Source of the DNA: Paraglomus brasilianum
Taxonomy: Eukaryota
NCBI GenBank assembly: GCA_910592345.1
Contig: CAJVPI010000073.1
Span: forward strand, 1 to 60,881
Length of the DNA stretch: 60,881 nucleotides
Direction: 5' to 3'
Below the pieces are notes generated by a model, which searched no databases, had not been told where the DNA came from, and saw only the letters and a program-made list of their open reading frames with translations. Both the position numbers and the translations under genes were made by a program. How positions within the stretch are numbered: position 1 is the stretch's first letter; each line of letters begins with the position of its first letter. This document shows, piece after piece, positions 106 to 59,046 of the stretch.

Positions 106-1167
106 CTTCAAGCTTTCCATCGTAATTTTTGTATTCTTTAACATATCTATCAATAATCAGCATACGTGTACCTGTTATTCTGCAGACGCGGTCAAATTTG
201 CCTTCAAGCTCTTTGCATTCTTTTTTAAATAACAAATACCATTATGTGAGCCCTCAGTACATATAAATAGATGGGTTCAGTAAAGACATACCATATCGAG
301 GAAGAACATGCTTTTCAAAATATTCTTTGGCTTCCTCCTTGCTCAAATCTCCAACAACATATGGGGTTGCATGTGGGATATGTAAAACTAAGCAATAAAT
401 GTGGATTAGAGAATAATAAACATTTACATTGCTATCAAATATGATTATAAGAAGGACTTACGATTTACGATCCAATTAAAAAAGAATGAATCGGAAGAGG
501 TAAGCACTACATGAAAGCGACCCATTTCTTTTGTATTTACCACCATCCAGTTCAGAATTGATTTAAGAAGAATTTTTCCCTCTTCCGAATGCCCAAGTTG
601 GCTAAACATGTTTGCTTCATTGATGACCAAAATGGGTGGAGGCACCTTGTAACCATCCCAGTGGGTCCAATTCGGGAGAGCATTACCAATACCATCAAGC
701 AACTTACGGACATTGTTAGAAGTAATTGGATCCCCACCAAATGGCTTAATTTTTAACTGGATATCATTCATAATGTAATTGATTTCTCCCCGTTCAAATA
801 ACTTTTTAAAGATATCCGTATATTTTTTGAAAAATGGCGCGAATTGCGAAGATATTGAATCGTATATCATCTTTGGTGTGTCAAATTGTCCTCCACGACA
901 GTTGATAAAAATAGGGTTGAAATCGCCTCTACTCGTTACCTCACGGATCAGTGCGGTTTTCCCAGTACTAGGAGGACCTAGAACGACATGAAGCTCCGGT
1001 TCGGCACTAAATGCATTTTTAAACTTGACAAGTTCTCGTTTCCGATTGAAAATGATCTTTTCACGAGTAGCTTGTGTTGTATAACGAGCAACACGACCAG
1101 TTCTAAGTGTATTTGAGATACAAATACCGCCGGTAGGCAGGCGTTTAGTTAAACCGAAAATGAGCAT
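106..1167 (-). CDS. P-loop ATPase (ATPase_2/archaeal-ATPase-like); 3' end runs off the window
   Basis: Exons 1167-462, 387-292 and 219-106 join in frame via GT-AG introns. Walker A GPPSTGKT follows IFNRKREL; the Walker B-like motif is LVINEAN; then HVVLTSSD and YVVGDLSKEEAKEYF. Confidence 0.85.
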
Positions 1168-2750: not shown

Positions 2751-3345
2751 CTAATTAAGTATGGTAGCAAGGCCCATCTGTTTCTTTATTCGACGAGCGG
2801 ACTTGCGCTGATAGTTGTAATAGTAATTTCTTACTTGTAACGCCGTTCGTCCTTCCATTTCGTCGGCGATGAGTTTCCATCTTGATCTTGCGGAATTATG
2901 TAGGTGAAAAAGTTTCCAGAAGGTTTTCTCTTCTTCTGGTGTGAATTCTCCTAGTTTAACTATGGAAGATATTGGAGTTTACACATAAGTAAACGGATAA
3001 AATTACAGGCATGATATCGTATCGTTATACTTACTACCATCGGCCAAATGGTTGGTATATCTAGTAAAGATTACACAAAACCATGAATATGGAGAAGCTA
3101 CATTGGACTCTTTTCTTGTAAGGGCTCACGATAATTACTTACCGTTCTCTTAGCTGTTTGGCGTTGCGTGAATTTCTCATAACTGCAGCTATTTTCTTGT
3201 AGTCGTGTTTATATTTCTTCACCAATTCAATAATGCGTTCATCTTCCTAATGTGAACAGAAAATTATCCATCAGGACGCCGAGTAAACTTGGACAAAATC
3301 ATTTGCTAGAATTGTTATGCGCACTTCTTTACTGAAGGAAGTCAT
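2751..3345 (-). CDS. Small two-repeat Myb protein, cluster copy 1 (119 aa)
   Basis: Exons 3345-3325, 3246-3143, 3060-3035, 2959-2751, all GT-AG, 360 nt in total. MTSFSKE/EDERIIELVKKYKHDYKKIAAVMRNSRNAKQLRER/YTNHLADG/KLGEFTPEEE...WKLIADEMEGRTALQVRNYYYN...QMGLATILN*. Absent from the ORF track. Confidence 0.9.
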
Positions 3346-6300
3346 GTTGAAAGAGCGTCTAGGCGTTCTTCGTCGATTGCAGGGGATTTTTATATCTCGA
3401 CTGTGTCGATCCAAATACGAGAGGGAGCGGAGTTATTTTACTTAAATAGGTCAATGTGTATTGTTTATATGCCACGTATTCCGGGGGGAGGGGGGTGGTG
3501 GCAGCGCTTTCAGCAACTACCAAAAAATGAACGCTAATCTTGATATTTATAAAGCAGTTTCCTGTAACGTCTTTTCTGTTAATACTTTAATCAATATTAA
3601 TATTAACAGCAATGCTCTTTTTCTTATCATTATCATCATCGATACGGGCATCATGCAACAAATATTCCTATTTCAAAGATGGGGGTCATTTAGGATGCGT
3701 TTGTTTTCCACTCTTTGTAAAATACCTTATTAATACACGCTCACAATGATATCATATGACCCCCCGATTTGTATGCCATGTGGGCTTAAAATAGCGAAAA
3801 CCCCTGTTTCGTCATGTAGGTATCTGACGAATAGAGTAAAGTTTTTCTATCGTAATCTGTATGCTTTTTTGCTCTAGATAAGAGAATATCGAATAATTCC
3901 ACGTGATCATGGGTATCCATCAAGTAAAAGGTTTGGCTATAGTATATAGTAATAGCACAATAGTACAATACCATTAACTATGCAATTTGTTTGTAAACAG
4001 TACTCTCGATTCTTCATAAACTTTAAGTTTACTGCAAAATGATTTGATGGGGGATATTAAAGTTCTATTAAAAGATTTTTATTTATGATGCGATGTAAAC
4101 TGATAGCTATTAATGCAGCCAAGTCATAATCTTCTACCTCCCCGCTTACCAAAAAGTTTGGTTTTTTTTCAGTACGACGACTCCCTGCGTATTTGCGCCC
4201 AATTCAGACTAACTAATTCAAGTAATGACCTTCATCGTGCATACTTAATATTCTTATGCAACCCCTCCTTCCATTATTCATTAGAGGAAAAACTTTTGTG
4301 TGTCTTCCTATTAACCGGCTAAGTTACTTGGCCATTCCACATGGCCGCACGGATCGAGTCTGTTGTATGCTCACACGGACCCATCGTATTTTGTTCAAGG
4401 ACAGGTCTAAAACTTGCGGATAAATAAAATTTCAAGAAACAATATTAATATATCGCTTACGTTATATGCGTATGCAATATGCATGAGGCTGGTGTGGCTG
4501 AATATCAGTGTATCGGGTAACTTCATTTTGTAGAAACTATCAGAATTCTTTGTAGTCCAACATCATCAGATATCATATCAAGCATTGCAAGTTTTCGGTC
4601 AGCAAGCCCCGCAACATCTCTTCCTCTCCTTACAGCCGTCTTAAACTTTCGCAAATCTTTCGATTCTCCCTTCTACTTCTACGCATCCCCCTAGCCATCA
4701 ATGTGTAACATTCAAAAATCTATATTGAGCCTTCTTTGCTTGATGACAAATAATGTGCGATATTCTAATAGGCTATATCCTGCAAAATTGAGGCATTCAT
4801 GACTTGCAATTGTGCTTCAACTGTTGTGTCCATGATGCAGACGTTCAGGTCAAAATTGCAAATATTTGGAATAAAATGTACAAAAGTATACGTTGTTTCA
4901 TTGCCCAATGACAATTGCAACAATTACATTTTGCTAACGAGAATTTTGCCTGCAAATATTTCCATAATGACTGTTCAAATAAAAACGCTACTGCTCTAGT
5001 ACTAGGTTATCTGTCAACTCTGATTATGGTTCTTGATTGCAAAATGCATTATCTCTAAACTCAATGTAGATAACAGTGCATCACATTGATTGTTTCTACT
5101 CATAGTTTTATTGAAGCTGTCTGACAGTTGGCTATATGAAAATCATTAGAGCCTTGACCGCGTTAATCATTATGATCGAGACTTTTCTCGCCCATGTCAG
5201 AGCTCAACTAGCTGGATACGGTGGCTCGATCAACGCATAAAGACAAATTATCCTGCAAAGTCGACAGCAGTAGTAACACCAATAATCGCCTGTATGTGCA
5301 ACCGTTGGCATTTTTTGTAGATGTGACCTCCAAAATCGCCAGTAGATAAAACCTCTCTTCAATAGACGCTGACTCCTTCGGACTTGCCAAAAATGTGCGC
5401 AAAAGTTGTAGAAATTTGAGTATTTTGTAGAGTATTTTGTCACGTTCTCACCCAGTCAAAAAACTTTATATGCAAAATTTCAGAGATTTCATGGTTGTGC
5501 TAAATGCAACACTAAGCAGTGTTCAATTATTGAGCGCCTCTTACTCTTAAAGTGGTTTGACTTTAATATGTTATGCTAAATACTTCCATGATACTTTAAT
5601 TCTTCTATAATCTGGCAAGCTAAAAAAATTTAACAGAGTATTGATAGGTGCCCTCGTATATATTAGTATGTCAAATATTTCCAAAACATTAATCATGCTC
5701 TCTGAAAATAATTAATTAGAAAAACGTTTAATTTTTATAACAAGCAATTATTCATTCTTATCATTGTTGGAATTGGTTTATGTGGAAGTCATTGAATACG
5801 GATAGGTAATAAATAACACGTGAATTTACCAGTCTGGCAAAATAAAGAAAAACAAAGACATACGGCATTTGTAAAGTCGCCTGCATTGTTTACTGGGAAG
5901 TTTGCACATCTTTCAAGTTGTCTGAATATTATTGAGACCTTGCTTAAATACCACAGCGGTCCATCTGCAAAGCATTAAGCTGAGATTAGGCACTAATTTT
6001 TGACATTAAGCCAACTTCCTGAGTAACACCGACACTATGTTTGAATCCTGCTTTCATAATATGTCACGTTGCTTATAGTAATAATAATAGTTGTCAATCA
6101 TCTGTCAAAACGTTTGTAAATCGCGCTTGCGCTATCCATTGAGAGAAATATTATGTGGCGCGATTGATATGAAAAATGTTATGTAAGGTTAACTCCAATT
6201 TTCTAACAGACAGATAATAATTTATGTTATTTAAGAATAAATATTTATGAAACACATGGTTCGTATAATATGGTTAGATAATTAATGGCCACCCAGCTCG

Positions 6301-6699
6301 GTTCAAATTCGAAGAACATTATTACTTAAAAGACACCATTAACCATGTCTCTCTATCAGGGTCTTTATATAATAGTTAAGTTGGGATACCTGACTAAGTC
6401 ATGTCGTTGCAAGACGATCGTCGACATTTCATATCAAATTAGATAAGAGAAGCATGAATAGACCAGGCATCTACCCATATACCGCAGTGGTACCCAGGCA
6501 ACTCATAATATTTATTAGTCAAGTATGGAGATGACGTACAGTGTGAAAGGCAATTACATATTTGATCATTGACCATAGCAATCAACATTATTAATACCTC
6601 TTTAATAGCTAAAATCAGTAGATTGTTGGCAAATTTTTAATATGCTATTCTTTCTCCATTGCTCTCAATAACTAACTAATATCTGTACTTTATCAATTG

Positions 6700-6835
6700 T
6701 ACTAATTAATTAACATGTTTTCTGGAATAGCCTCTACCATAGAACGACTTAAATCTTGCTGATCTTGTGGCATTCTTTTTTCGACGTTTCTTTTAACAAC
6801 ATTCTAAAGATTTTCTATTGGGTTTAAATTGTGGA
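6700..6835 (-). mobile_element. Tc1-like (DDE_3) transposase relic
   Basis: Minus strand reads NLNPIENL*NVVKRNVEKRMPQDQQDL, matching the Tc1 SPDLNPIENLW motif with W mutated to a stop. Confidence 0.7.
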
Positions 6836-8207
6836 ATCACAGTATGATCTATGCTGTCAACCTTTTTAAGTTATTATAGATAGTCCGCATTGGAATCTTT
6901 GTGTCTTTGTGAATGAATATCTTTGGCTGAGTGGACTTTTATGTTCCAAAAATGTAATATAGTTTTTCGCTGGTTTTTTAAATCGGACTTGTCACTTTGT
7001 TAAATAAGTGACTTCTAAAGACATTGCACCATTTAATAAAAATAAAAAGTAGGTTTTCGTGATCAAAACAAAAACAAGTTTACGTAATTGGTTTATTTTT
7101 GGGAAAGTTATGCGAACTTAAGTCTATGCCAATAATTTCTTTACAATTCAAATTCCACAAACTCTATTTTTGATATATATATTTGAAAATAACATGATCG
7201 AAATGAATGGTTGGACAATATTCTTAGTAGAGCATTGTGCTTCAGTGGGCTGTTCTCATTAGAATTTAGGAGCAGAAGATCGAGAAGCTTATTTTATAAA
7301 CACTGTCATTATGCTACTGGCTAAGCGATGGCTGTGTGAGAAAGTATCTCGGCATATACATATATCACTGATTCATTCAAGCATACTATTGTCCTTATTG
7401 GTTATGTCAATGACGAATAGAGTTCATTACGGATTACTTCTAAAGCAACATTCGGTATATTATATATGATTCATAATAGATTCCAATTTTTCTGCTCAAT
7501 GGAAATATATCACTGCATAGTCATGAATTGCAATAAAGCATATTCAGATTTGGGTTGCTAAGATGCCGCTATCATCTAGCACAAGAAGCATAATCACGTA
7601 CTAATCCGGTAGTTGGCCACTGGTTTTGGTACCTTGTTTAATCGAATAGTTATTATTGACTTGTTATATCTTAACATGGACTAATATAAAATATAAGCGA
7701 ACACACTAACAGACATATTATAATACTTATATGAACCTCTATGTACTGTTGTCAAACTATCTGAACCAACAGCTGACATCTCCCTTGAAACATAGCGCCT
7801 TGTGGATGCTCACATCAATGTATCATCGCAGAATTTACATGTACATTTGATTCTAACGAGTAAATATGGCTTTTAGTTGTACCATTTGTCGATGAGCTGA
7901 TGACAAGGGCAAAGGTTAGCAATATTTGTCGGTTGTAGTCACATGATTTGTGATTGTCTTTCAACAACGACTGGTAGTCTTTTGGGAAAGTGAGATCGAG
8001 GAGGGGGAAGAGCCCGAACAACTGGATGTTCTAGCTATATCCGAGTTAGGTCAGCAATGAAATGTGAACTTTACATGTGTAATAAACAGTCTTACACAAA
8101 TCTATCCCAAAAAGAAATAATGACACGAATTATACGAAACATCTCACATGCATGCATTGCAGTTGTTTTACGAAAAATTTATTCCTTTGTGGAATTTGTA
8201 TGGTAAG

Positions 8208-8287
8208 GTGCGAATTGTGCGAATTGTGCGAATTGTGCGAATTGTGCGAATATTGTGCGAATTGTGCGAATTGTGCGAATTGTGCGA
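8208..8287. repeat. 9-bp tandem repeat (GTGCGAATT), about 8-9 copies
   Basis: Directly visible, with one 2-nt insertion mid-array. It lies ~200 bp past the stop codon of Myb copy 2. Confidence 0.95.
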
Positions 8288-8487
8288 GTGTTGAAATCGA
8301 AGCCTTTGCGTTCGAACGAATAACGATTCATATTTGCAAATTATAAATTAGCTTAATTATTGAGGAGGGTGTTATACTATAGTTACAAAATTAGCTTACT
8401 GAAAAGAAAAAGAATAAAGAAAAGGGAAGTGTTCGATCAAAAGTCTTTGTCATCGTTCTCGTAATATTGCGCGCTAAAAGATGTTTA

Positions 8488-9144
8488 TCAATTAACGATG
8501 TAGTCAATCGACATTTTTTCCGCTTGGTTACGATGGCTATTATGCCAGAAATTTTTTACTTGAAGTGACGTTCTTCCTTCCAACTCCTTTGCTATTGTTG
8601 ACCACTGGTGACCATATTTCTTGGTCAGTTCAAGTATCTTCCGACGCTCTGCGATCGTAAGAGGTTTCGTATTGACTGTTTAGAAAAGAGAACAAAATTG
8701 AATAAGCGTGTGTTTGCAAATTACGATCTGTATGTTGGCTTTATGGGCTATATCGTTGGTATGTACTGTATGTAAATATATACTTACTTCCGGGACATAA
8801 ATGAAATAAATAACTAATGTGGACATATTTTTGGGAAAAGAAAAAGAGAGGGTAAGAGGTTAGACCCGTTGGCAAGTTTTTATAACTTTATATATTATAT
8901 AATTTCTAATACGACTGCACTCACCGTTGCCTAATTGACTTTGGTGAACGATGGGGTTTCGATATACAAGAAATCTTCTGCCATTGAGAGCCATGCGTCT
9001 CGTAATGTTTCAACAATTCATTATCCTCCTGTGTTTGTATACAAAGAGGAAGAAAAGGCAAGGGTCAACACATATGAACCCCCTTTAAAACATGTCGTAT
9101 AGATCATATATGTAAAAGCCAAGTACCTGGGATGTCCAACGCAT
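8488..9144 (-). CDS. Small two-repeat Myb protein, copy 2 (111 aa)
   Basis: Exons 9144-9127, 9028-8925, 8813-8788, 8675-8488 (336 nt). MRWTSQ/EDNELLKHYETHGSQWQKISCISKPHRSPKSIRQR/YLFHLCPG/NTKPLTIAERRKILELTKKYGHQWSTIAKELEGRTSLQVKNFWHN...KMSIDYIVN*. Confidence 0.9.
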
Positions 9145-10531
9145 GTCCACTCAACAAATATGGCGTATAAAAGAAGACCGTAGTGATAATAATTCAAAGT
9201 AAGGAAGGGAAACAAAATGTCAGTTATTTGAGGCGGAGGTTGTGTGGTGGTTGATGGTAGTGGTGTTTGGTGGGGGTTTGCGGATGGCAGAGTTATTTAT
9301 ATTAGGGTGACTAAGACATGTATTCCGATTTGATATTTGGGTTTGCGCATTGACAGTCAGTTTAGTAATTCCGCGTATTCGGTTTGGATCAATAGAAAAC
9401 CACCAATGACTAATATAACACCTTTTCCAAATATTCCTGTATTACAAGTAATCCTTAGCTTCCATGTCTGTCAATGTGCATTCATGTCATTTAAAGTAAA
9501 ATATGTCAACTGTTCAGGAGAACGGATCATTGTTTTCGAAACATGGCTGACGTTGTGAAACAGACATGCTGCCGATAATTGTTCCTCGGCTCCGGACAAT
9601 GCCACCAGGAAAAAATTATGGCATAAAGATTATATATCTTTTCTTTACCGAAATTAACTGAGACTAACTTTAATAAACCCGGATTAGATAATTAATTGTG
9701 CTTAAAAGTACAAGGAATAGGGAAAAAGGATTCCCTCATTATTGTTGATTACGTAGCACCTTTGGACTAAGGGGTAATAAAATGGCGATGGTATCGTGAA
9801 CGTCAACGGTACTAGGCACGTGCCTGTACTAGTACACACACGCTGTGTGAGACGTAATCTATCTATCAATCTGTTATCTATCTGTGTATCTTACAATGTC
9901 TGCATGCACCCCATCTAACTTTGCCTCTCCCCCGCCTTTTCCCCACTCTCCCACGTTTGACAAATATTTTTATTGTCTCGTGACCGATGAAAACCAATTT
10001 GTTACTCGAATGATGGGTTTATCAATCGGAGCGCTAAAAAATAACGGACCTACAGTAACATTAATTTACATACATACAAAACAAAAAGAGTGATAAGGTT
10101 TGAGAATACAACAAGGCAAAAAGCGCTTATTGATAACTCAATTAAGTAATAGCATTGAAATGCTCCCTTCCCCATATTAAATGTGAACACTAATGCCATT
10201 TCCAAAAAGTACTAATCGGGTAAGATATATCTGCATGCTCCTTATATATTTTATTTTTTTTTACTGCCGGGCCACTTCTTTTGAGCAGCCGGGCAATTAT
10301 GTACAAAAAAAAATAAAAATAAAATAAAATAGCGAGTGTTATGTTAATGGACCGTGTTCTTATAGTCACGTGATGTGACGTAAATGGTGTTTGTTATCTC
10401 CAAGGTCAGTCAGAAGACTGTGTGTCGTAAGAGGAGGCAGCATTAAAAAATTAATTACATATGTGTTTTTGTACAATGTGGATGTGACTCGAGTGAAGAA
10501 TAAGATGAAGAGATTTGTCCCGTTTGTCCGG

Positions 10532-11223
10532 TTACGGGTTAGGGTTGGGATTAAGGAGATTTTTAATAGCCATTGGATCATATGATTCTTGTTGCCGCTT
10601 TGGCCGTACTGGACGCTCGTGGTTTTTATGGACACGCTTCCGCTTCTCGGAATACCAGAAGTTACGGACTTGTCGATCAGTTCTGCGGTTGTTTAGGAGA
10701 GAAGCGATGTAGGCCCACTTGTTCCCGTGTACCGACTGATATTCCAAAATGAGCTGCTTTTCCAATTCCCCGAGAGGAGTACGGTTGACTAGTAAAAAGA
10801 AGGAAAGCAAACAAATAAATAAATAAACAAACAAACAAGGAGTTGTTAATTTTGCTGCAATAAATTATACGAATTGCTTACTTGTAGGGTTTAAGAGATA
10901 GACGTACCTAACAAAAACACATTGGAAAACCAATAATTGGATTAATATATAGCTATTCTGTTTAGAAACCTTTAAATATATCAATTAATACTAACCTATC
11001 TCTACAAGCCTTGGGATGAGCGCCAATGGCTTTTCCAATCTCTTTCCAATTGTTCTTCTTCTCACTCGCCATATCGATGAGCATACGCTCTTTCTATGTG
11101 TTTTCAGTGGGCAGATGTAATTGAGTAAGACAATAGGCGTTGGCTAACCATTCACAGTTAATTCAACAACAGCTTTCTAACCTTGTTGGTCCATTGACAT
11201 TCTCCGCTCGCAAATTTGCTCAT
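10532..11223 (-). CDS. Small two-repeat Myb protein, copy 3 (140 aa)
   Basis: Exons 11223-11182, 11093-10996, 10907-10882, 10788-10532 (423 nt). ...QWTNK/KERMLIDMASEKKNNWKEIGKAIGAHPKACRDR/YVYLLNPT/NRTPLGELEKQLILEYQSVHGNKWAYIASLLNNRRTDRQVRNFW...PMAIKNLLNPNPNP*. Confidence 0.9.
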
Positions 11224-13741
11224 AATTAAATGCTTATAATGCTAGATGACTTGTGTGTGTAGGGGTCTTTTTATGTCCATGAGATGTATTGTTATGTTTC
11301 TTTAAAGTGGTTGTTTATACATTGTATACATGACTCATTGAGATCTTCTAATCGTTCGGCAATAATGGTAGTTTTTGCAGCATTTTGTCCAATCGCATCT
11401 CCACGAAAAAAAGCTCAATCGATATACAAAAATCGGCTAGACCGTCGACTATAGACAACCCAATGACGTTCTTGTGGCTTGAATGAATTCACACGTTTGT
11501 GTTAATTCAAAAATAAAGTTACTATTGTTTCGAACAATCTAATCGGCGGCTGTCACAAGTTTTTGCGTCTACGAAAGATATTAGTCGCATGTGAAAAAAT
11601 TGACAAATGTTATTGTTAATAATGTATTAATATCCCTATATTCAGATAATCTAATGTCGTATGACTTATATTTGTATGCACCTGTTCATTTTTTACTCTC
11701 ATATCATGCGCCCTGATTAAAGAGGGTAATATTCATAGATTCGACAACACGGATTATTGGTTAAGGGTACCATTGGTGAATAAATCGGGCGATGATTATC
11801 TTGGGCTCGCGAGTTTTCGCAAGTTTTCTGATACAGTTGGCCCCTTGCGCATACGCCATGTATCAAGAATGTTAATTTTCAAACAATAGGCATGCATCAC
11901 AAACATAGCCGTCTTATCATTTGTAATCGCGTTCTAGGCATCGGGTGCTTACTAAAAAGGAATGCCAAAAGATATCTGCATCGTTATCCATTGTTAAACG
12001 ATATCATCTTTTTTTTTTCTGACGGGAACCCTGCGTATCCAGGGTTCGGGTACCGTTAACGGAAACACGTTTGTATTAGCGCATAGTTTTAAATAAGCAT
12101 ATATCCTGTTCAATTATCTCTCTGCTTTTCTCATTGCTTTCCATGCTCGTTATGTTTCTTCATAGTTAGTCTCATCCGGTAAGGTTAAATTTCATTCAAT
12201 TCGATTACCAGTACCGTTACCGTCACTGTCACTTTTACGAGATACTTTCGCAGGCAGTTGAACACCTTTTCTCTAAATCCGTATTTTGAATCACAAATAC
12301 CGTTCGCTGACGTTCTTCCGCTTGTTGACAGGAAACAAAGAATGCAGGAAATCGATTGTATGCTTCTGAAGGGAACATAGAAGTAGATGGGATTCTTAAC
12401 TAGAAGGCAACTCGGACGTCGTTAATGATTCAGCTTCTTCCTTCTCTTGTGCGGCATTTGGAAAGGAACTTTGGATGAAAGCTTGTGTTCTAGTTTTCAA
12501 TCGAAGGTTGGTATTATATAAAGTTGTTCTGGGAAAGCAAGAGATTGAAATCAATACACAAGGGCAGCATCTGTCATCATTTAGATACGCTGGAAATGAC
12601 CATGAGTAAATGTCTCTCATCATAACAAATGAATCATAGACAGGCAAGATCTTGTTCCTGATTCACAATAAAAGAACACAAACTTCTTGTTCCTGATTCT
12701 CATTTACTCAAATCGGTTTGATTTCGTGGTAGATGTGTAACGACTAATTCAATAATATCGTTTACTAATCAATCAAGTTGACAATAGATCGGCATCTTGG
12801 AAAACGAAACAAGTTATTCGGTCAATAGGTGAATAGTCATGGACAAGATCCCCGTCTGAGATGGTTCGAACAATTGCGTCTGTATTAACATCATTTAATT
12901 TTTGAACAGCATTCAACGTATCAAGTTTAGACACACTTTGAGGGACGTTCGAATTTGTAAAATCATTGACAAGAATGAAATCGTGCATTGATCATTTATA
13001 ATGCAATGTCTATGTACGCTCGGAGTAATCGATGCCGATCAAAGAGTGAGTAATTTGAATGACGTTGTGCTTAAAGACGACGAAATGTTACTGACCCTTG
13101 TTTGCTGATTGAAAGGTAACGAGATTCATTTAAAGCAACTACTACAAGTAAGAGGCTATTCGTCGCACAAGGTTGGGGGTTTATTCCGTGCAAACTTGAT
13201 CTATTTTCAGACAACAATAACATGAATCAATATAATACAAAATGCCATATAAAGTGTGGAAATGTGCGAACGGGGGGAGATGTTAGTGCATTGATAAAGA
13301 TTCTATGATGGCGTTTGTCAGCTGTTATAAACAATGATCGAATATGGAAGTATCTATTGATGTTAATAACGATTGGAGAACAATGGCAATATACCGAGTC
13401 AGGAATTGGCCCATTCCACCTGCATGAGATATATTCCTCATCACACACCCCCTCTCCTTCAAGCCTAATTGGTTTGTCACGGGACTTCGAGCTAAGTACA
13501 TGTACGGTCGAGATGTTTTAATATATAGATTTCGTATGAACAAAAAAGAAAAGCATAGAGCATAGAAATAAGGGAAGCTTATATAAAGGATTTCATAAAT
13601 TTGTAGGTATTTGCGCCGTAATAATGTTCGAAGAAATGGTTGATATGGATTGGCGCACATAAACTTAAACGAAAGGGTGGGTGATCAAACGAATGAAGTT
13701 GTCGGTACTCGAAACGTAACGAAAATTCACGAAAGATGCTA

Positions 13742-14432
13742 CTAGACTCTGCCGCAGATGTAAGATACCGACATCTTTCTTGCAGGGTCACGTCTTTTGG
13801 CTATACGAAGGACATTATAATAAAAATTACGGATCTGTAACGAGGTTCTTCCTGGAAGTTTTCCCGCAATCAATGCCCATTTTGGTCCGTGTATCTCGTA
13901 TAATCTGTAGATTTCTGTTTGTTCCGATAAACTGAGTTTGCTATGGTTTACTGTAAAAGTTAAAAGGTAGAAGGCAGATTTTAGTATACAAAAGTTTTTT
14001 CGAAACGCTTGACAAAATACGTTATTCACTTACTGGTATTGTCGAGATGATTTCTGTATCTAAAGTATTTTAATTGGATTAAAAAGACGTTATTTTACAT
14101 TTACAACTTTTCGTGTCTTCAATAAACAAAATCTGCCAAACTAATTTCGTTAATCTGACCTTTCCCGGCACTGCTTTCCAGTCACATTATTGCCAATAGC
14201 TCGCGCAATGTCTCCCCAACGTGGGCCGTTTTTCTCAACAAATTCTTTCAATAGATAATCTTGCTGTAACAAATTATTAATTTTAATACGAGATTAAAGG
14301 CGGGCATCCGCTCAGACTGTACTACATTGCTGAATATGGCAATGTTTATAAGAGAGAATATGGAAAACTCTAAATTTATTTATTTATTTTTTTTTCACGT
14401 ACAAAAGGCGTCCAATATCTTCTCCTAGCCAT
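13742..14432 (-). CDS. Small two-repeat Myb protein, copy 4 (122 aa)
   Basis: Exons 14432-14403, 14263-14160, 14059-14034, 13950-13742 (369 nt). MARRRYWTPF/QDYLLKEFVEKNGPRWGDIARAIGNNVTGKQCRER/YRNHLDNT/NHSKLSLSEQTEIYRLYEIHGPKWALIAGKLPGRTSLQIRNFYYN...KMSVSYICGRV*. Confidence 0.9.
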
Positions 14433-15849
14433 CTCGTTACAGTGGATGGCAACGAACTAAATCTCGGTTGGGCCTTTTTTTTTTACTCGATATCATAAAT
14501 GTGTCTGGAAAAGCGCTGTCTGTAAACTCGGGATGAGTTGGGTTGTATATATACACGTATCCATATATACGAGACTCATTCAATATTATGGTTAAATACG
14601 TTTATAATAACCTGATTTAGGCTCAAATATGGCTTAGACAGCTTACGCACTGCTGCTAGTAACGCTTTCGTAAAGATTTTCTTTGCCGATGAACAACGAC
14701 TCGCTTACAAATGCCAATTAGAATTCATCTACATACAGACTCATATGACCTTTAACAGAAATAAAGTTATTTTTCCCCACCTACGATGGGCTGATAAGCG
14801 AAGCAAGTTATACGTCTAATTTAGACTTCCGATGCATGCGGATGATTATCAGGAGAGAAAAAGTTTCAGAGGGTAAAAGAATACCCAATAAAGGAACTGA
14901 GCGTTGCTGCAAGAAGACTTTATGATTGTTGCCCAGAAGCATCTTTTCCCCCAATTAAAAAAACTTTGAGAAAGCCAAGCCCTCTTGCATATGATCAACT
15001 ACCAGCTTGGGACGATCGCCAACTTGAAGTGAGAATGAATCGTTTACATTAACTATTATTCATCTATGCATGTGATGGTTCTTGTTCCCACAGAAGAAAA
15101 CGGTTCGATGCGCCTAACGAATCTTGTATGAATATTCTTAGTCTACTTGACAATTGTCGAGGAATAAAACTTTTCTTGTCGTCTGTCGAGGAGAGGACAA
15201 CCCCACACTTTAATAAACTTGTTAAGAACCATTGCTTTCCCGTTCAAGCTTTTAAGCAAGGTTCTTTGTCTGGAGAGAAGCAAGTCGCGGGCGTACTTGC
15301 AACGGCTACATAATCGCGCAGGGCCATTAATATTAATGGTAAATTTTTTTTCGGTTTGATATCATATGATCATATATTTGTAGATCATTAATCATAGGTT
15401 ATTTATATACAGTATTTAGTATTAGGGATGGGAAAGACCATTTAATTTGTTCCCTCGACGACAATAGCGCAAAAACGATGACATAATGCGGAACCCCATT
15501 TGTAGATCTGATCGGCATTTCGAACCTGCTTTGTGCATGAGAAAAGAATTTTGCTTGGCCACTTGGTCAAATGGTAAAGAAACATTTATTCTTCTCCTTT
15601 ATCGTTATTTTTTTTCTTTTGACGCTAGTATTAACCCGCTATTTACAATAGTGGGAGAGTGTGGGAGACGCTCATGATAATCTCTTGAATGAGACATGCC
15701 TGTACGTATTTTTTTTTTCATGTATGCTGTGCAATCTCGTTCTACTTTTAATGGTTCTCTCTCTATCTGAGTGGATGGATAGGGTAATTTGCTGCGCCGC
15801 CATGGATATGTGTCGTACTGACGCTTTTATACCCCACAAGAAACTGTTT

Positions 15850-15903
15850 GTTTGTAGAATGTCCTAGATAGTTTGTGTGTAGATGTTTGTAGAATGTCCT
15901 AGA
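15850..15903. repeat. Short direct repeat (gtttgtagaatgtcctaga x2)
   Basis: Two copies ~35 bp apart, upstream of Myb copy 5. Confidence 0.8.
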
Positions 15904-16113
15904 CGTTATGATGACGTACAGTTACTGAATACATGTGCTACATGGGACGCCTAATACATCAAATATCTAATAATAATAATGGTTTGACCCGAACTTGCAA
16001 GAACATTCTCGAGCTATAATTCTTATATCCGCAGAGGGTACGTACAAGCTTAAATTGCCAGAATCATCCATTCTTGCGTCTTTGTTGCTAACGAGTCAAT
16101 ATTACGTTTACTT

Positions 16114-16829
16114 ATGATGCCGTGTATCTCTGTTTCTCGCAAAAAAGACTCATGCGTCGAGTATTGGTCTCCTACGGTAAATGGTTCGCATATACTGGTC
16201 CACTAGTATGTGTTAGGGTAACTGAAACATTCACTTGTAATAGGAGGATAAAGAGCTTCTGAAGCTGTACGAGATCCATGGTCCGAAATGGATGGATATT
16301 GTCAACAAGATGAAGACAACGCGTAATCATAAACAAGTGCGCGAAAGGTAATTATTATGTGTGTTTATTAATACAATCGGTATTTGTGTTTCTCCCGAGT
16401 CAGTCGATGTTTTATGGTCCAATTCAATCAATTATTAGATATATAAATCATCTTAGGCCAGGAAGTTAGTTTTCTTCAATCGTAGGCAAATCATTCCATA
16501 ACTTCATTGATGCTTCGTCAAATGGTGCATTAGTGCAGTAATGGTCATATTATTTAAGTTGATATAACGTGCAGTACTCTAACAGAATTTATGTTCTTTT
16601 TTTACTAGTCAACTTTGACCCTCTGACCAAGGTTGAGGGAGAAGCAATTATAAACCTGTACAACGAAATCGGTGGCAAGTGGACCGAAATTGCTGGGAAG
16701 CTGGGACGCACCCAATTACAAGTACGCAATTTCTGGTATAATAAGCGTCGAGGCGAACGATCTCGCCGATTGCATAGACGAACCGCGAGCAAACTTTCGC
16801 GTATGTCAATTGACTTTTTGTTGAATTGA
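16114..16829 (+). CDS. Small two-repeat Myb protein, copy 5 (137 aa), inverted relative to the others
   Basis: Exons 16114-16176, 16244-16347, 16439-16464, 16609-16829 (414 nt). ...YWSPT/EDKELLKLYEIHGPKWMDIVNKMKTTRNHKQVRER/YINHLRPG/NFDPLTKVEGEAIINLYNEIGGKWTEIAGKLGRTQLQVRNFWYN...RMSIDFLLN*. Confidence 0.9.
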
Positions 16830-19800
16830 TTTTATGGCTATTCGGAGCAGCATTCGTACCAGATCAAGTCCATTGCTCTGCATGTTGACTTTAAACTGTT
16901 ACATACGTTAAGATTAAGATATTTATTGTATTTACATGAGTTTTGTTTATGTATGAACATAATAACAAGTAATCAATACTTTATTCTATAGAAATTTTGT
17001 TTATAATACTAATACTAAACTTAATAAATTCTACACGCGATAAGTTGTAAGTATTGACATGATTAATGATTGGTTGATTGCAATTAGCTCAAGCTCATGT
17101 GATTAAACAATGCCTACGAATGACAAAGTTCTCCTTGCATCGATTTTATCTTCTGAAGTAATCCGTGTATTGAAACAATGCTCAGAATGGTTACATGCGT
17201 CCCAAAAGACGACAATGAATCGGAATGCTCGTCGAATTGCAAAGTGATATAGAAGGCGTCTCTGAACAGAGCAGATGCTTTAGAGCCATCGAAGGTGGAT
17301 GTCTCATTCTCTAGCTCAACCATGAGATCAGGTTTTAATACTTTTAACGAATTTAGTCTCTCTCTCTCTCTCTTCCCTCCCTCCCCCACTCTTCTTTAAG
17401 GTCAATGTGATGTCAAGCTAGCCACTCATTTTCCAACAATTATTTCGAAAGTAATTTTTGTCAGTATTAAATTCGGGGATTAGAGCTTTCGTCCTTCACA
17501 ACTTACTATAATCCGTAAAAAGAGTTTTTCACCGACCACCAAATCAGCACGCTATCGGTATGATAGATCAATTAATTACGGTACAATTTTTTTTTTCATA
17601 TAAAGATGATGACAAGTCTAATTTCCTGGTCTATTTCAAAATATTTGATTTTACCCTATACAATTTTTTCTGCTATTTGGAAATCTACTTAGGCCGTTGT
17701 AGTTGGAAGTGGAACACATTACCCACGCTCATCAAGCTTGATTTCATTCAATGTCTAGAAACGTATCGCTGCACTCCTGGAGGAAGCAGATGCATCTTGG
17801 ATGTAATAGCAATAATTATAGGACACCTGACTGGGTGGTGTTGGTTGTATTGCATCAACGTGGACTGCACTTCAGATTGGTTCGTTGAAGACAGAAACAG
17901 ATTGCACAACAATTTTCACGTTATTGTCGACTGCCCAATGTTTATGCATATGCTGTACATACAGATCGATATCTCATAATGGTCCCCGCATATGATTATT
18001 GGGAATATCTATTGTAACGTGAGCAATTCGTTCATAATACGAATTCGCAAGAACATCAAGAGGACATGCATCATGGTAATGTTAGGAAAGAAGAAATAAT
18101 GACTGATTTCAAGTTTTTATTGCTCTCTTCATACATTCTTATTGGATCTTTCCATAATCATTCCCCCACGTAAAATTCGTTCGGCTGTACTGTTTCATGC
18201 ATCTGCAGATACTGTATATTGGCGGTTACATCCTATCACGAATATGCAACTGCCTAATTAAGGGCAGCCTTAGTCCGAATCTTTGAAATCTATCTGGATA
18301 TCGCGGTATTTCGTGCTCGCCAATGTAGACTTGGTGATACAGCGATCCCGATGTAGATCAGATGCGACTATGCGTCAGCGATCCACTGCTCTAATACTAG
18401 ATTCTGGGTAGTCGATATAGTCTATAATGAGGACTGGGAAGTGTGTAATGGGTTCTGTAATGGTGTGGGTGAGTTGACCTCTAACGGCGATGTCATCCCA
18501 GAAAATATCGAAGAGGAAGCAGTACTGCCGATACTCCTTTGCAAACAACTTGATAATAAACTCGGAGCAATTAAGAATAATAATAAGGTTTAAAGATTTC
18601 AGGGGTTCAAGACTGTTGAACGCCACAGATTTGTCTTACAACCTAATTTTCTTTCTTTGCACTAATTAATCTCGTGATTAAACTAGTAATGCTACTTGTT
18701 ATTAAGATTGTTTGAGATTTGGTGGGGGTAATCTTGCCGTTATAGCAATTCTTGTTGTTATTGCAATAGTCTACTTTGCAAGGGGTGATGGATAAATAAC
18801 GCGACTCGCATTCATTGTCATCTTGGAAAAATCGAATAAAACGAACGGTTTCATTGTATCGGCCACGCCTAATTCTTTAAAACAATTAACAATCCAATCC
18901 TAAACAATAATCCCATTCATCTCTTGGACCCTAACACTACCTGTCCCATTATAGGCTTTTACATCTCTGTCTTTTCTTATATAAGCCCTGTTAGCTAACC
19001 TTTTTTTTTTGACATAAATATTTTTTACCAGGGAAAATTTCCATACTTTGAGCCAAGTACTATCACTAAGGCAATATTAGCACAAATTACCTTTGTTTAA
19101 TAAAAACATTTTAATTTACTGAATAGAAAGTTCCAGTTATGGCGTATGGAAATTTGTCAAATACCTGAAAGTGCAATGGGCAGGCGCAGAAGACAAGCTC
19201 TCAAATATGCATCTAGTATGCAATCATGCAACTTTAATGATACCGGAATGATGAACTGGAAGCAGCATACATCATCACAATCACAGATTGTCATTGTAAA
19301 CCCTGTCTCGTTGATAGCACAAGAGATACAGTTGGCCGATTACCGTGAATGATTACTTCCGGACAATTTTTAATCTCTACCTTTGACTGAAAGCGCATTA
19401 AGCTTGTTGAGTTTATTCGCGTGCATTTTGCTGGTCTTTGTTGACAATGCTCCGCACGAAAGGGAAGGCTAAATTACTGCACATGACAATTATTAATAAA
19501 ATAGTGTAATCATCATCAGTTTCCAAGTCCCGGGAAGAAGTATTTTATATTTATCGCATAGCCCCAATTTTTACCAGCAGAGAATCACGTTATACACATT
19601 GCGCAATAGTATGTTAAATATGATGCGTTTTCGCACCAAGTCGTATTAGGAGCATAGCGTCGCGTATTTACTATATTTACTTTCCAACCTCCTGTTCACA
19701 GTTGATTGAATTCTCCATCCGATGTAAATACTATCGAGTATGTTACTATCCTCCATTCGCGAGCAAATTGTTTGTTATACAACATTTGTTAGCCCGCAAA

Positions 19801-20286
19801 CACCTGACATCATGATGTCCTTTGAGAAATCGTCTTTTTCCAGAATTGTAATAGCCTATTTATCTGCTTCCCGATATTTTGGGACCAAAATTTTCCCCGA
19901 GAATATTAGTCTATCGTATAGTCCATGTTTGTAGGCTGTCCTTGTTTTGGGTAAGGTGTAAGGTATGGAAATATGGAAGCAAGGTTTCTTAAACCCGTTG
20001 CAAGATAATACCATAACTGGGGGGGCGCAATATATACAAAGTGCATATCAAATAGATTAAACACGAACTTTCAAACTTAATTTTCATTGGCCAAAGTCTA
20101 TAAATGTGTGTTCTATAGAAGATAATTACAAGTTCCACCTCATAACGATAATCCAAAAGTCCATAAAAAAGTTATCTTCTATTTTTACAGTACAGCCCAG
20201 CTGCAATATATGATGGGGGCTACACTTTACTTTACAAGGCCCCTCTGCTTTTTTCACCCACGTCAAATTCACCGTATGCTCGGCAC

Positions 20287-20883
20287 TTAGTTCAGCAACT
20301 GCGAAATCTCCATTTTGGATGAGCGTGTGTAAGCCGGGGGCTGTAGAGGATGGGTTACACGTCGAAAGCGATTATAACAAAAGTTCTTGACTTGGAGACT
20401 CGTCCTGCCAGAGAGATATCTCGCAATAAGAACATATTTAGATCCGTGTATTTTGTGCAATTGGCGAATTTTGTTCTGTTCGTCGAATGTTAGTGGGCTC
20501 AAATCAACTATATCAGATAAAACTAGTATTAGACAACACAAAGTATATATTTATTTACAACCGAAAATGCTGTACCTACTTCCAGGACTCAGGTGATGAA
20601 CATATCTGTTAACAATGAATTAATGTATAAGTAAAAGACAACTATGTAACAATGACATGATTATCAAGACTGTTTTACCGTTCGCGAATGGATCTAGCAC
20701 TTCTCGTCCTCATTAATGCAGCAATTTGTCGCCATCGAGAACCAAAGACTCGAAACAAATTGATTAATTGAGCATCTTCCTATAGAAGAAAATGACGATA
20801 ATGAGGCAAAATTAACGGTAAATGTCACTAGCCTTTTTCTCTTTACTATTGCGACTTACAGCCGGCGTAAAATGCGAACTCAT
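20287..20883 (-). CDS. Small two-repeat Myb protein, copy 6 (123 aa)
   Basis: Exons 20883-20860, 20779-20679, 20605-20580, 20507-20287 (372 nt). MSSHFTPA/EDAQLINLFRVFGSRWRQIAALMRTRSARSIRER/YVHHLSPG/DLSPLTFDEQNKIRQLHKIHGSKYVLIARYLSGRTSLQVKNFCYN...KMEISQLLN*. Confidence 0.9.
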
Positions 20884-21924
20884 CTCCAAGCTTATCAATT
20901 GGTGATGATATAGTGTATCTCATTTATAAATGAACGAGCGTTAAAGTCACTGTGATTAGCCCATCACCTTTATCCTGTTGCAAAACCTGATTTCCTCCAT
21001 TCTTTTGCATGGTGTAAAATAAAGGTTCCCGAGACTATGGTCAGATGATATCATCGACGACAATACGCTAACCAATGAGCGTGGAGTGTTGATGCTATAG
21101 TCTTTTTGCGATTGCCTAATCTTGGCGATGATACCAACAGAACGGGTTGATAATGACGACAACAGACTTTCGATGGTGCAGAATAACTGATCAATTTCGG
21201 TAATCAAATGAATGAATGTGATATTTCAAAACCGGTTTCCCAAATTAAAAATTTTTTTTTTCCTTCCCAAAGAGGCTTTTCATTGATTCAAGAAGCAGTA
21301 ATACATTTTCATTTGTGTAAAATACAGTAGTAGTTTCCTATAGTACTTTTTTTTTTCCTTTCTTCTTTTTAAACAATTACAGTACGGAGAACTACCAATA
21401 ACATTAAAGTTTCCGATACGCAAAGGACGGATAATAGAGTAATTTTTTTCCTTTTTAAATTATCATCCCGTCTACGATACCCACTACTCCCAGGACGAGG
21501 AGATTGAACTGGGTATTTATTATAGAGCGATGAGCAAGATGTCTCCTATTTGGGACTCGTAACTAATAAATAAATCACAGATCTAATTGTTCTCATAGTA
21601 CAGCGCCAAGTATTTGACCATTGCAACAAGGGGAAATCAAAATACAAAATAAAAAATAAAGCAAAACTATAATTGTCACCACTTGTCAATTGCTCTGTCC
21701 GACAAGTAACACTCCAAGGAAAGCAAATCCCATCAAGCAACAACGATTGACAGATAATGCGTTCAGTATGTAAAACAGTATCCAAGAAACAGTCGAGAAA
21801 TCAAAAACCAAAACTCAAATGGAACAAAATTACACAGCAAACAAGAAGAACATACATATTTCGTATCTGAAAAAGAAAAAACTATAAAAAACGAAAAAAG
21901 AGAAAGAGAATACATCTGAGAGAA

Positions 21925-22749
21925 CTAGTTCAACAAGTTTCTAATATTCATCAAACTCTTGATTCGCCCACGGGGTTTCTCTTCGCCTCGTACATTCTGA
22001 GTCGAACTTGCTCCTGACCGTCCCTCGTAATTAGGTCGCTCATCAACTGCAGCCTGCTGTTCCATAGGAGCATCCTTTTGACGTTTGTTCTTTCTGCAAG
22101 CGGTACGGTGGAAGAAGTTTTTTACTTGTAATGCCGTGCGTCGAAAACCATCCCCATTTCGCATACGACGAGCAAATACGGCCCACTGCGGGCCTTCTAT
22201 TTTATTCCATTTGACCAATGCACGCTCTTCTTCAATCGAAAAACGGTCATGGTTTACTATATAATAGCAGGGAGATGTACAAAACGAGAATAAGTAATCG
22301 GATTCGGATGGACATGAAAAGAATACTAGATTAAAAGATTGATGAGAAAACATACTCGAAGGGTCTAAGTGGTTGACGTATCTATAAAGCAGACGTTGAA
22401 AATAGATATTCATCGTTAGTGATGGTCGGGTTTTCATCGTACGAGAAACAGAAAAGAATAATATGGAGAAAAAAGGTGTCGACAATAATGACGACGACGA
22501 CGGCGACGACGATGACGAAAACACTAACCGTTCTCTAACTTGTTTGTGGTCTCGTGCCCCGTTCATAGCTGCAGCGATGCCTTTCCAGTCGCTACCATGT
22601 CGTAAATGTAGTTCGAGTACGAGCTTGTCTTCCTGTAATTTGCACATAAAAATTCAGCCAACATGTCGCAAATAGCAATGCCTCTTTTCGCTGTGCTCTG
22701 GTAAAAGACTTACAGTTGCTGACCAATGCCCTTTCTTGAGCGATGGCAT
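21925..22749 (-). CDS. Small two-repeat Myb protein, copy 7 (165 aa)
   Basis: Exons 22749-22714, 22632-22529, 22381-22356, 22256-21925 (498 nt). MPSLKKGHWSAT/EDKLVLELHLRHGSDWKGIAAAMNGARDHKQVRER/YVNHLDPS/NHDRFSIEEERALVKWNKIEGPQWAVFARRM...RTALQVKNFFH...LMNIRNLLN*. Confidence 0.9.
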
Positions 22750-41349: not shown

Positions 41350-41666
41350 CGCAAAGAATCGAATTATAGACATTAAACTTTCCAGGTTAGTATCTGCTTT
41401 CACGATAATTACTGAATCGCAGCGTTTGTCATCGCGCCAGCGTTGTTGGAAGGAGTAGAGGTGGTAGTAGGTGGTGTTTGAACCAATGTTTGATAATGAA
41501 CAGAAGGTGGATTATAGTTGGTCAAATCATAGTTTATAGTTGAACAGTTGACCACATTTTCATTGTTTCCGATATATCCGTAATTTTCGATATTCAACGA
41601 TTCGTTCACACCAATGTAAACGCCGCCGTTATGATCGAAAAGGCCGATATCGGAAGGAAAAGTTTG
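41350..41666 (-). pseudogene. 5'-truncated, frameshifted member of the N/Q/S/Y-rich family
   Basis: FPSDIGLFDHNGGVYIGVNESLNIENYGYIGNNENVVN...SNNAGAMTNAA, then a frameshift into VIIVKADTNLESLMSII. The N-terminal half is absent. Its 3' flank (41115-41330) matches 54035-54245. Confidence 0.8.
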
Positions 41667-49863: not shown

Positions 49864-50073
49864 ATCGGAAACGATAAGAGATAACACAGTTCTTGGTTTG
49901 AGATTCGATGGATGATATTCGAGGTATATATACCAGAGTAAATTTATGTGTCTTTTATTTATAGAATGCTCCACTTCCTAAATTAATCCTAACAAAAACG
50001 ACGTGTTATAATTCCTAATGATGTCAAGGTAACAAAAAAAAAGATGGTTTGATTGGGGTCCACCGCTGACTGC

Positions 50074-58160: not shown

Positions 58161-58165
58161 CACGC

Positions 58166-58967: not shown

Positions 58968-58980
58968 TCTATATATAAAG
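58968..58980 (+). promoter_or_regulatory. Candidate TATA box for the HMG gene
   Basis: tatatataaag ~70 bp upstream of the ATG at 59047. Confidence 0.4.
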
Positions 58981-59046
58981 TCGATTCATCCCTCTACGAA
59001 TGCAAGACACAGCAAACGTGCTTTCCATCAACTGTCTGATAAAAAC

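What the first reader, a model, noticed from the sequence alone, without database searches (positions are those of the whole stretch)
2751..21960. Shared C-terminal motif M-x-[ILV]-x-x-[LI]-[LVC]-N in all seven Mybs
Seen: the tails are MGLATILN*, MSIDYIVN*, MAIKNLLNPNPNP*, MSVSYICGRV*, MSIDFLLN*, MEISQLLN* and MNIRNLLN*. The linker between domain and motif varies freely in length and sequence, and copy 4 is the most degenerate. The proteins have no acidic activation region. Inference: a short linear motif that docks a co-regulator, possibly a Tup1/Groucho-type corepressor by analogy with C-terminal EAR/WRPW motifs, which would make these minimal DNA-binding repressors.
Basis: partly seen in the sequence, partly recalled or inferred. 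Interest (0 to 1): 0.75.

Follow-up and report, generated by a model that had tools for sequence, protein, structure and literature searches.

The report
Myb tails carrying Tup1 docking motif
Seven small DNA-binding proteins encoded side by side in a mycorrhizal fungus all end in the same short peptide, which is predicted to plug into the fungal gene-silencing protein Tup1 and so likely makes them compact gene repressors.

Summary
The window (Paraglomus brasilianum) holds seven tandem four-exon R2R3-Myb genes of 111-165 aa, 26-50% identical. All seven end in M-x-[ILV]-x-x-[LI]-[LVC]; the final N is in 6 of 7. The motif is identical in 5 of 6 ortholog comparisons.

It has the spacing of animal eh1 (FxIxxIL) and yeast MATalpha2 (IxIxxLL), with Met first. 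EAR and WRPW are the wrong analogues. A Paraglomus Tup1 with the Tup-type pocket exists.

Co-folding its WD40 domain with the copy-7 tail scored 0.71, best control 0.02 (mark reached by 51 of 78 solved and 2 of 108 mismatched pairs; peptides untested; partner pLDDT 46-47). Only the motif touched, on the top face that yeast uses for alpha2. The pass may reflect memory of TLE1-eh1.

Best reading: minimal Tup1-recruiting repressors (0.68). Binding and repression are not measured; range beyond Paraglomus is unknown. It is a new variant of a known motif class.

The parts
2751..3345 (-). Copy 1 R2R3-Myb gene, 4 exons (3345-3325, 3246-3143, 3060-3035, 2959-2751), 119 aa
   Evidence: Model; identical to deposited protein P0004
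2754..2777 (-). Copy 1 motif MGLATILN
   Evidence: 5-residue helix at pLDDT about 58
8488..9144 (-). Copy 2 R2R3-Myb gene, 4 exons (9144-9127, 9028-8925, 8813-8788, 8675-8488), 111 aa; no deposited P. brasilianum model was returned
   Evidence: Model; P. occultum ortholog P0007 of the same length
8491..8514 (-). Copy 2 motif MSIDYIVN
   Evidence: 8/8 identical in P0007, 7/8 in P0010
10532..11223 (-). Copy 3 R2R3-Myb gene, 4 exons (11223-11182, 11093-10996, 10907-10882, 10788-10532), 140 aa
   Evidence: Identical to P0006; introns joined or bridged in contigs of runs X6, X11
10550..10573 (-). Copy 3 motif MAIKNLLN, followed by PNPNP
   Evidence: 5-residue helix at pLDDT 67-70
13742..14432 (-). 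Copy 4 R2R3-Myb gene, 4 exons (14432-14403, 14263-14160, 14059-14034, 13950-13742), 122 aa; no deposited P. brasilianum model was returned
   Evidence: Model; spliced contigs in X5, X7; ortholog P0002
13751..13774 (-). Copy 4 variant motif MSVSYICG, followed by RV
   Evidence: 8/8 identical in P. occultum P0002 while the domain is 78/97
16114..16829 (+). Copy 5 R2R3-Myb gene, 4 exons (16114-16176, 16244-16347, 16439-16464, 16609-16829), 137 aa; inverted relative to the other six
   Evidence: Model; deposited P0171 starts at the second Met; all three introns joined in X5
16803..16826 (+). Copy 5 motif MSIDFLLN
20287..20883 (-). Copy 6 R2R3-Myb gene, 4 exons (20883-20860, 20779-20679, 20605-20580, 20507-20287), 123 aa
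   Evidence: Identical to P0001
20290..20313 (-). Copy 6 motif MEISQLLN
21925..22749 (-). Copy 7 R2R3-Myb gene, 4 exons (22749-22714, 22632-22529, 22381-22356, 22256-21925), 165 aa
   Evidence: Identical to P0003; intron 3 joined in 8 of 8 runs laid
21928..21951 (-). Copy 7 motif MNIRNLLN; predicted Tup1 WD40 contact (L157, M158, I160, L163, L164, N165)
   Evidence: identical in P0168, P0169, P0170; both motif variants seen in contigs are synonymous

Best explanation
Seven tandem R2R3-Myb genes encode small basic proteins, each a Myb DNA-binding domain plus a variable linker and a terminal M-x-I-x-x-L-L-N-type peptide, and that peptide is predicted to dock on the top face of the Tup1 WD40 propeller, which would likely make them Tup1-recruiting repressors. 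Shown: the genes, splicing of four of them, conservation of the motif, and a Tup1 with the Tup-type pocket in the sister species. Predicted: the motif is a short helix in an otherwise low-confidence tail; Met1, Ile3, Leu6, Leu7 and Asn8 contact the conserved top-face residues of Tup1. Inferred: R2R3 binds promoter DNA, the linker is a tether of free length, Tup1 (with Cyc8) silences the target gene, and Met takes the first hydrophobic position that is Phe in animal eh1 and Ile in MATalpha2. The motif was most likely inherited from one ancestral gene and kept while the paralogs diverged.
For: (1) Spacing of hydrophobic residues 1,3,6,7 equals eh1 FxIxxIL and MATalpha2 IxIxxLL, whose I4, L9 and L10 are needed for Tup1 binding (PMC4943189; PMC4901127). 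(2) Copley argues that the Tup Y580/L596 pair clashes with the eh1 Phe, so Tup may bind eh1-like motifs without Phe; this pair is Y535/L551 in P. occultum Tup1 and invariant in 85 of 85 aligned fungal Tup1. (3) Co-fold of P0293 311-661 with P0003 131-165: ipSAE 0.71 in three runs, best of 3 controls 0.02; mark reached by 51 of 78 solved and 2 of 108 mismatched pairs; runs agree in at least 60% of contacts; partner pLDDT 46-47; of 35 partner residues only 157, 158, 160, 163-165 are confident contacts. (4) 21 of 22 Tup1 interface positions are at least 90% conserved, against half of all WD positions; they include the equivalents of 4 of the 5 alpha2-contact positions named in 10.1101/2021.05.11.443680 (C348, Y445, N673, I676, mapped by hand). 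(5) Motif 8/8 identical in 5 of 6 ortholog pairs, 7/8 in the sixth; 3 of 4 motif variants in transcript contigs are synonymous. (6) Myb domain pLDDT 85-98, motif block 58-70 in two models. (7) Tails are basic, without an acidic activation region.
Against: No measurement of binding or repression. The co-fold covers one copy only, used Tup1 of the sister species, ignored my alignments, has low partner pLDDT, is uncalibrated for peptides, and may reflect memory of the solved TLE1-eh1 complex (2ce8, named in PMC4943189). The top face is the generic peptide site of WD40 proteins (PMC3419727), and no control is described as another WD40 protein. Y535 (yeast Y580) is not among the confident contacts. 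Only 4 of 7 motifs fit Copley's fungal pattern [VI]xx[IL][LM]; copy 4 has a low hydrophobic moment of 0.13 and may bind weakly or bind something else. All seven also fit the Sin3 PAH1 type I pattern, and yeast repression domains often bind several corepressors (PMC10163088). Linkers of orthologs are also well kept (83-94%), so motif conservation between these close species is weak evidence alone. One contig has L6F in copy 5. Tup1 can also act as a coactivator (bioRxiv preprint above).
Confidence: 0.68

Rival explanations
1. The motif is a repression helix for a different corepressor: Sin3 PAH1/PAH2 or the Cyc8 TPR array. The proteins would still be repressors.
For: All seven fit the Sin3 PAH1 type I consensus Phi-x-Phi-x-x-Phi quoted in PMC10163088; that paper reports single short domains binding Sin3, Cyc8 and Tup1 alike.
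Against: The extra conserved positions 7 and 8 match eh1/MATalpha2 and are the best-defined contacts with Tup1. Extensions after the motif in copy 3, copy 4, P0002 and P0106 argue against a TPR carboxylate clamp. Sin3 and Cyc8 were not co-folded.
Confidence: 0.11
2. The motif is a Phi-x-x-Phi-Phi activation helix that binds a coactivator KIX-type domain (Med15), so the proteins are minimal activators.
For: IxxLL motifs occur in activation contexts such as BMAL1-CBP (search listing only). The c-Myb LxxLL-KIX contact is recalled, not checked.
Against: Tails are basic and poor in acidic and aromatic residues; invariant Met at position 1 fits the eh1 register; the Tup1 co-fold passes.
Confidence: 0.07
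3. The motif is a hydrophobic terminal degron that keeps these regulators short-lived.
For: Exposed hydrophobic peptide at or near the C-terminus; 5 of 7 end exactly at Asn. General knowledge of C-degrons, recalled.
Against: The terminus is not fixed (PNPNP, RV, KPQ, NKEK follow the motif in four proteins); strict 1-3-6-7 spacing with invariant Met is more than a hydrophobic degron needs.
Confidence: 0.06
4. The motif is structural: it folds back on the R2R3 domain (autoinhibition) or mediates dimerisation among the paralogs.
For: It forms a short helix in both models; paralogs are clustered, and several are spliced in the same runs.
Against: Motif confidence is low (58-70) beside 85-98 for the domain; structural matches to solved Mybs cover about 94-102 columns, the R2R3 only; the linker varies from 10 to 53 aa. 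The alignments were shallow (25 rows), so a weak intramolecular contact could be missed. Homodimers were not modelled.
Confidence: 0.08

Closest known systems
Yeast MATalpha2 N-terminal Tup1-binding motif (IxIxxLL)
   Same: Same hydrophobic spacing, same predicted partner and surface (Tup1 WD40 top face; equivalents of C348, Y445, N673, I676 in the predicted interface).
   Different: C-terminal rather than N-terminal; on an R2R3-Myb rather than a homeodomain; Met rather than Ile first; in Glomeromycota; binding only predicted.
Metazoan eh1 motif (FS[VI]xx[IL][LM]) bound by Groucho/TLE
   Same: Short amphipathic helix with positions 1,3,6,7 hydrophobic; Ser at position 2 in copies 2, 4, 5; docks on a WD40 top face.
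   Different: Lacks the defining F/Y at position 1; fungi have Tup (Y/L pocket), not Groucho (F/E pocket); the metazoan carriers named in the paper are homeobox, forkhead and T-box proteins.
Candidate [VI]xx[IL][LM] Tup11/12 motifs in Schizosaccharomyces factors (Fep1, Res1, Scr1; PMC4943189)
   Same: Same core; 4 of 7 copies match it exactly; 5 of 7 Tup11 hot spots for Fep1 (PMC3419727) map by residue and spacing to the predicted interface.
   Different: That pattern has no first residue and is poorly specified; here an invariant Met two residues before and a usual Asn after extend it to 8 positions.
Plant subgroup-4 R2R3-MYB repressors with C-terminal EAR motif
   Same: Architecture: R2R3 domain plus a short C-terminal motif recruiting a corepressor (search listings).
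   Different: EAR is LxLxL and binds the TOPLESS N-terminal domain, an independent solution (PMC4943189); different sequence pattern and partner.
c-Myb / Trichomonas Myb R2R3 DNA-binding domains
   Same: Pfam PF00249 twice; fold match to 1h8a, 1h89, 3osg at rmsd 1.3-1.8.
   Different: No transactivation domain; the R3 recognition helix reads RTxLQV[RK]N where outgroup Mybs read RTDNxIKN, so target specificity likely differs.

Membership tests
R2R3-Myb transcription factors | Two tandem Myb repeats (PF00249) | tested here: met
   Two stretches above the curated cut-off in the 4 window proteins scanned and in orthologs of copies 2 and 4; copy 5 by alignment
R2R3-Myb transcription factors | Two three-helix bundles matching solved R2R3 domains | tested here: met
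   (mean pLDDT 88.0, 86.6); Foldseek to c-Myb and Trichomonas Myb2
R2R3-Myb transcription factors | Sequence-specific DNA binding | not testable with these tools
   Basic recognition-helix residues are kept; no binding data
Metazoan eh1 motif | F (or Y) at position 1 | tested here: not met
   Met in 7 of 7; consensus from PMC4943189
Metazoan eh1 motif | Hydrophobic residues at positions 3, 6, 7 | tested here: met
   7 of 7 for [VIL]xx[IL][LMVC]; 4 of 7 for the strict [VI]xx[IL][LM]
Metazoan eh1 motif | Partner is Groucho/TLE with the F/E pocket | tested here: not met
   The Paraglomus corepressor found clusters with fungal Tup1 and has the Y/L pair; absence of Groucho from fungi rests on PMC4943189, not on a search of this genome
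Fungal Tup1-binding eh1-like motif (MATalpha2 type) | Phi-x-Phi-x-x-Phi-Phi without an aromatic first residue, outside the DNA-binding domain | tested here: met
Fungal Tup1-binding eh1-like motif (MATalpha2 type) | A Tup1 with intact top-face pocket in the organism | tested here: inconclusive
Fungal Tup1-binding eh1-like motif (MATalpha2 type) | Binds the Tup1 WD40 top face | tested here: inconclusive
   Prediction passes (0.71 against best control 0.02; 51 of 78 solved, 2 of 108 mismatched), copy 7 only; a model, not a measurement
Fungal Tup1-binding eh1-like motif (MATalpha2 type) | Tup1-dependent repression lost on motif mutation | not testable with these tools
   Needs a reporter assay
EAR (LxLxL) / WRPW motifs | LxLxL or [WF]RP[WY] sequence | tested here: not met
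   None of the seven tails contains either (patterns from PMC4943189)
Sin3 PAH1-interaction domain, type I | Phi-x-Phi-x-x-Phi pattern | tested here: met
   7 of 7 by inspection (pattern); low-information pattern
Sin3 PAH1-interaction domain, type I | Binding to the PAH four-helix bundle | not tested
   The single complex job went to Tup1

The most novel reading that the evidence does not exclude
M-x-I-x-x-L-L-N is the so far undefined fungal consensus for the Tup1 propeller pocket: a Met-led eh1 that fits the Y/L pocket where Groucho takes Phe. The Paraglomus array is then a natural allelic series of seven minimal Myb repressors with graded Tup1 affinity, and the motif would let Tup1-recruiting repressors be read from sequence across fungal proteomes.
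Probability: 0.35. Interest if true: 0.7.

Novelty: new variant of a known kind. Interest (0 to 1): 0.47.

Why it matters
Tup1 is the general fungal corepressor, yet the papers read here say its recruiting motifs are poorly specified: only MATalpha2 is mapped in detail, and a five-position pattern without a first residue is too vague to search with (PMC4943189, PMC10163088). Seven diverged natural copies with an invariant Met and a testable structural model give a sharper consensus and directly test Copley's prediction that Tup binds eh1-like motifs lacking Phe. It would also assign a direction (repression) to an undescribed transcription-factor array in an arbuscular mycorrhizal fungus, and offer an 8-residue portable silencing tag for fungi. 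The mechanism class itself is known, which caps the surprise.

Tried and rejected
No whole genome was held, so the proteome-wide enrichment test could not be run. The profile search of 1.84 billion representatives gave 24,862 hits; the 150 listed were mostly multi-repeat proteins and added one new motif-bearing relative (P0106). Two word-indexed searches (22 of 22 and 120 of 160 hits listed) returned no named motif-bearing Myb outside Paraglomus apart from one plant-labelled transcript 98% identical to copy 7 (P0170); these searches are insensitive, so absence elsewhere is not shown. Atlas search of the tail alone gave no usable hit; the whole protein gave only generic Myb clusters under 0.9. 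Copies 1, 2 and 6 had no cover in 8 of 8 runs laid (8 of 16 listed), which is no evidence that they are silent. Five look-ups of earlier scan findings gave nothing relevant. Komachi and Johnson 1997 was not held; its positions come second-hand. First gene models of copies 2 and 3 had mis-set boundaries and were corrected. Rejected: chance; recent duplication or assembly repeat (26-50% identity, orthologs in P. occultum); seven convergent origins (shared intron positions; motif-bearing rows plus P0018, which lacks the motif, are split from 17 other Mybs at 95/85); EAR or WRPW identity; strict C-end recognition (extensions after the motif).
Full report
1. Observation. A six-frame scan found all seven quoted tails directly before stop codons, each downstream of a Myb R3 recognition helix. 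The pattern without the last N fits 7 of 7; with N, 6 of 7. It ends 10 of 2752 six-frame segments in the window, 7 of them these genes; tail shuffles give p of 9e-5 to 1.8e-3 per gene. Among 129 other Myb hits, 4 have the Met-pattern after the last repeat, one of them an ortholog of copy 2. The pattern is post hoc and the genes are related, so the point is retention across deep divergence.

2. The genes. Each is a four-exon gene with GT-AG introns at the same three positions (phases 0, 2, 1; a 26-base third exon in all seven), coding 111-165 aa at 26-50% pairwise identity. Four models are letter-for-letter the deposited Paraglomus brasilianum proteins; copy 5 differs only by the first Met. Copies 2 and 4 returned no P. 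brasilianum record, and the five deposited gene numbers run consecutively across them, so they look unannotated. P. occultum has orthologs of copies 2, 4 and 7 on a contig of one length, 90,746 bases. A profile scan found no eighth copy in the window. Contigs from 8 of 16 listed runs were laid (two on record as RNA, six guessed RNA). They join or bridge introns of copies 3, 4, 5 and 7; intron 3 of copy 7 is joined in 8 of 8. Pfam, AlphaFold2 and Foldseek agree on an R2R3 domain. In a tree of 31 rows the motif-bearing proteins, with one long-branch protein lacking the motif, are split from 17 other Mybs at 95/85, and internal order is unresolved. With the shared introns this points to one ancestral gene carrying the motif (inference).

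3. The motif. The linker varies from 10 to 53 aa and is basic; there is no acidic region. The motif is 8/8 identical in 5 of 6 ortholog pairs and 7/8 in the sixth. The 'degenerate' copy-4 form is unchanged in P. occultum although its domain is only 78/97 identical. Linkers in those pairs are 83-94% identical, so this test is weak on its own. Of four motif variants in contigs, three are synonymous and one is L6F in copy 5. In two single-chain models (copies 1 and 3, 25-row alignments) it forms a five-residue helix at pLDDT 58-70, beside 85-98 for the domain. Met is invariant in 12 of 12 aligned proteins. Residues follow the motif in four proteins, so a free C-terminus is not required.

4. Partner. 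The spacing equals animal eh1 (FxIxxIL) and yeast MATalpha2 (IxIxxLL). Copley reports that the Tup pocket pair Y580/L596 clashes with the eh1 Phe and suggests Tup binds eh1-like motifs lacking it. I obtained a glomeromycete Tup1 from a metagenome scan (40 loci; Tup_N plus seven WD40) and from it the P. occultum protein P0293. Its pair is Y535/L551, invariant in 85 of 85 aligned Tup1 (85 chosen from the 120 listed hits plus P0293). A P. brasilianum Tup1 record was not seen.

Co-folding P0293 311-661 with the last 35 residues of copy 7 scored 0.71 in three runs against a best control of 0.02. The mark was reached by 51 of 78 solved and 2 of 108 mismatched pairs (eukaryotes: 71 of 105 and 2 of 126; peptides untested). 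Runs agree in at least 60% of contacts and partner pLDDT is 46-47. Confident partner contacts are only L157, M158, I160, L163, L164, N165. The 22 Tup1 contacts are top-face residues, 21 of them at least 90% conserved. Mapped by hand through the 1erj alignment, they include the equivalents of yeast C348, Y445, N673 and I676: 4 of 5 alpha2-contact positions named, with Y580 missing. They also include 5 of 7 Tup11 hot spots for Fep1 (mapped by residue and spacing only).

Limits: one copy, sister-species partner, alignments not used by the tool, no WD40 decoy described among the controls, and the solved TLE1-eh1 complex may be remembered.

5. Mechanism. Shown: genes, splicing of four, motif retention, a Tup-type partner in the genus. 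Predicted: motif helix on the Tup1 top face. Inferred: DNA binding by R2R3, recruitment of Tup1-Cyc8, repression. Confidence 0.68. Rivals: Sin3 or Cyc8 docking (0.11; all seven fit the PAH1 type I pattern), fold-back or dimerisation (0.08), coactivator helix (0.07), degron (0.06). The R3 helix has Leu (six copies) or Arg where outgroup Mybs have Asn; that this Asn reads a base in c-Myb is recalled, so altered target specificity is an inference.

6. Comparison. It works like eh1 and MATalpha2. It is not a metazoan eh1 (no F/Y; Tup pocket), nor EAR or WRPW. It is a candidate member of the MATalpha2-type Tup1 motif class, with binding and repression unmeasured. Ten literature searches listed no paper on this motif in fungal Mybs, on a Met-led form, or on this array; I saw listings only for most, and the library lacks most subscription papers. 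That similar tails occur in other fungal transcription factors is my recollection, not tested here.

Papers seen: PMC4943189, parts 1-3 of 5 of the text, 2 of 3 supplements searched without hits; PMC4901127, passages; PMC10163088, passages and Discussion; PMC3419727, passages; bioRxiv 10.1101/2021.05.11.443680, passages. Unseen supplements and alignment figures of the first two could hold Met-led examples.

7. Verdict. Real, well supported at the level of prediction, a new variant of a known motif class. Interest 0.47; up to 0.7 if the Met-led form proves to be the general fungal Tup1 consensus (probability 0.35).

Noticed in passing
window 16345-16609: One contig (run X1, depth 11.8) skips the 26-base third exon of copy 5; the frameshift gives a 58-aa product with R2 only and no motif. 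Run X2 has another join, 16481 to 16609. Possible splicing control of the repressor.
   Followed up: partly
window 16038-16147: One contig (run X5) splices an extra 5' intron in copy 5 that removes the annotated ATG at 16114, leaving no in-frame ATG before R2; alternative or non-AUG start possible.
   Followed up: no
window 8488-9144 and 13742-14432: Copies 2 and 4 appear to be missing from the deposited P. brasilianum annotation, though both are intact and annotated in P. occultum, and copy 4 is spliced.
   Followed up: yes
window 12177-13116 and 17579-18208 (+): GT-AG spliced contigs between the Myb genes. For the joins at 12826-13116 and 17579-18208 the longest frames were 62 and 94 aa; the 12177-12331 join was not translated. 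Possibly non-coding transcripts inside the array.
   Followed up: partly
window 41400-60054: An HMG-box gene at 58963-60054 (PF00505) and a repeated unit with related ORFs near 41409, 46827, 49054 and 54304 on the minus strand; an HMG-like fragment near 55361. A second tandem array on the same contig.
   Followed up: no
window 39315-39998 and 56763-57446: Identical ORF translations at both places point to a near-exact segmental duplication about 17.4 kb apart.
   Followed up: no
window 445-1167 (-): ATPase_2 (PF01637) / AAA-type ATPase exon next to the array.
   Followed up: no
window 8207-8288: Tandem array of a roughly 10-base unit (TGTGCGAAT-like) just downstream of copy 2.
   Followed up: no
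P0170, P0175: Proteins labelled Anthurium amnicola are 98% identical to copy 7 or nest among glomeromycete Tup1; likely fungal transcripts in a plant data set.
   Followed up: no
P0106: An unnamed JGI 143-aa R2R3-Myb with tail MSVKRLLN plus NKEK, about 37% identical to copy 7, not assignable to any one copy.
   Followed up: partly
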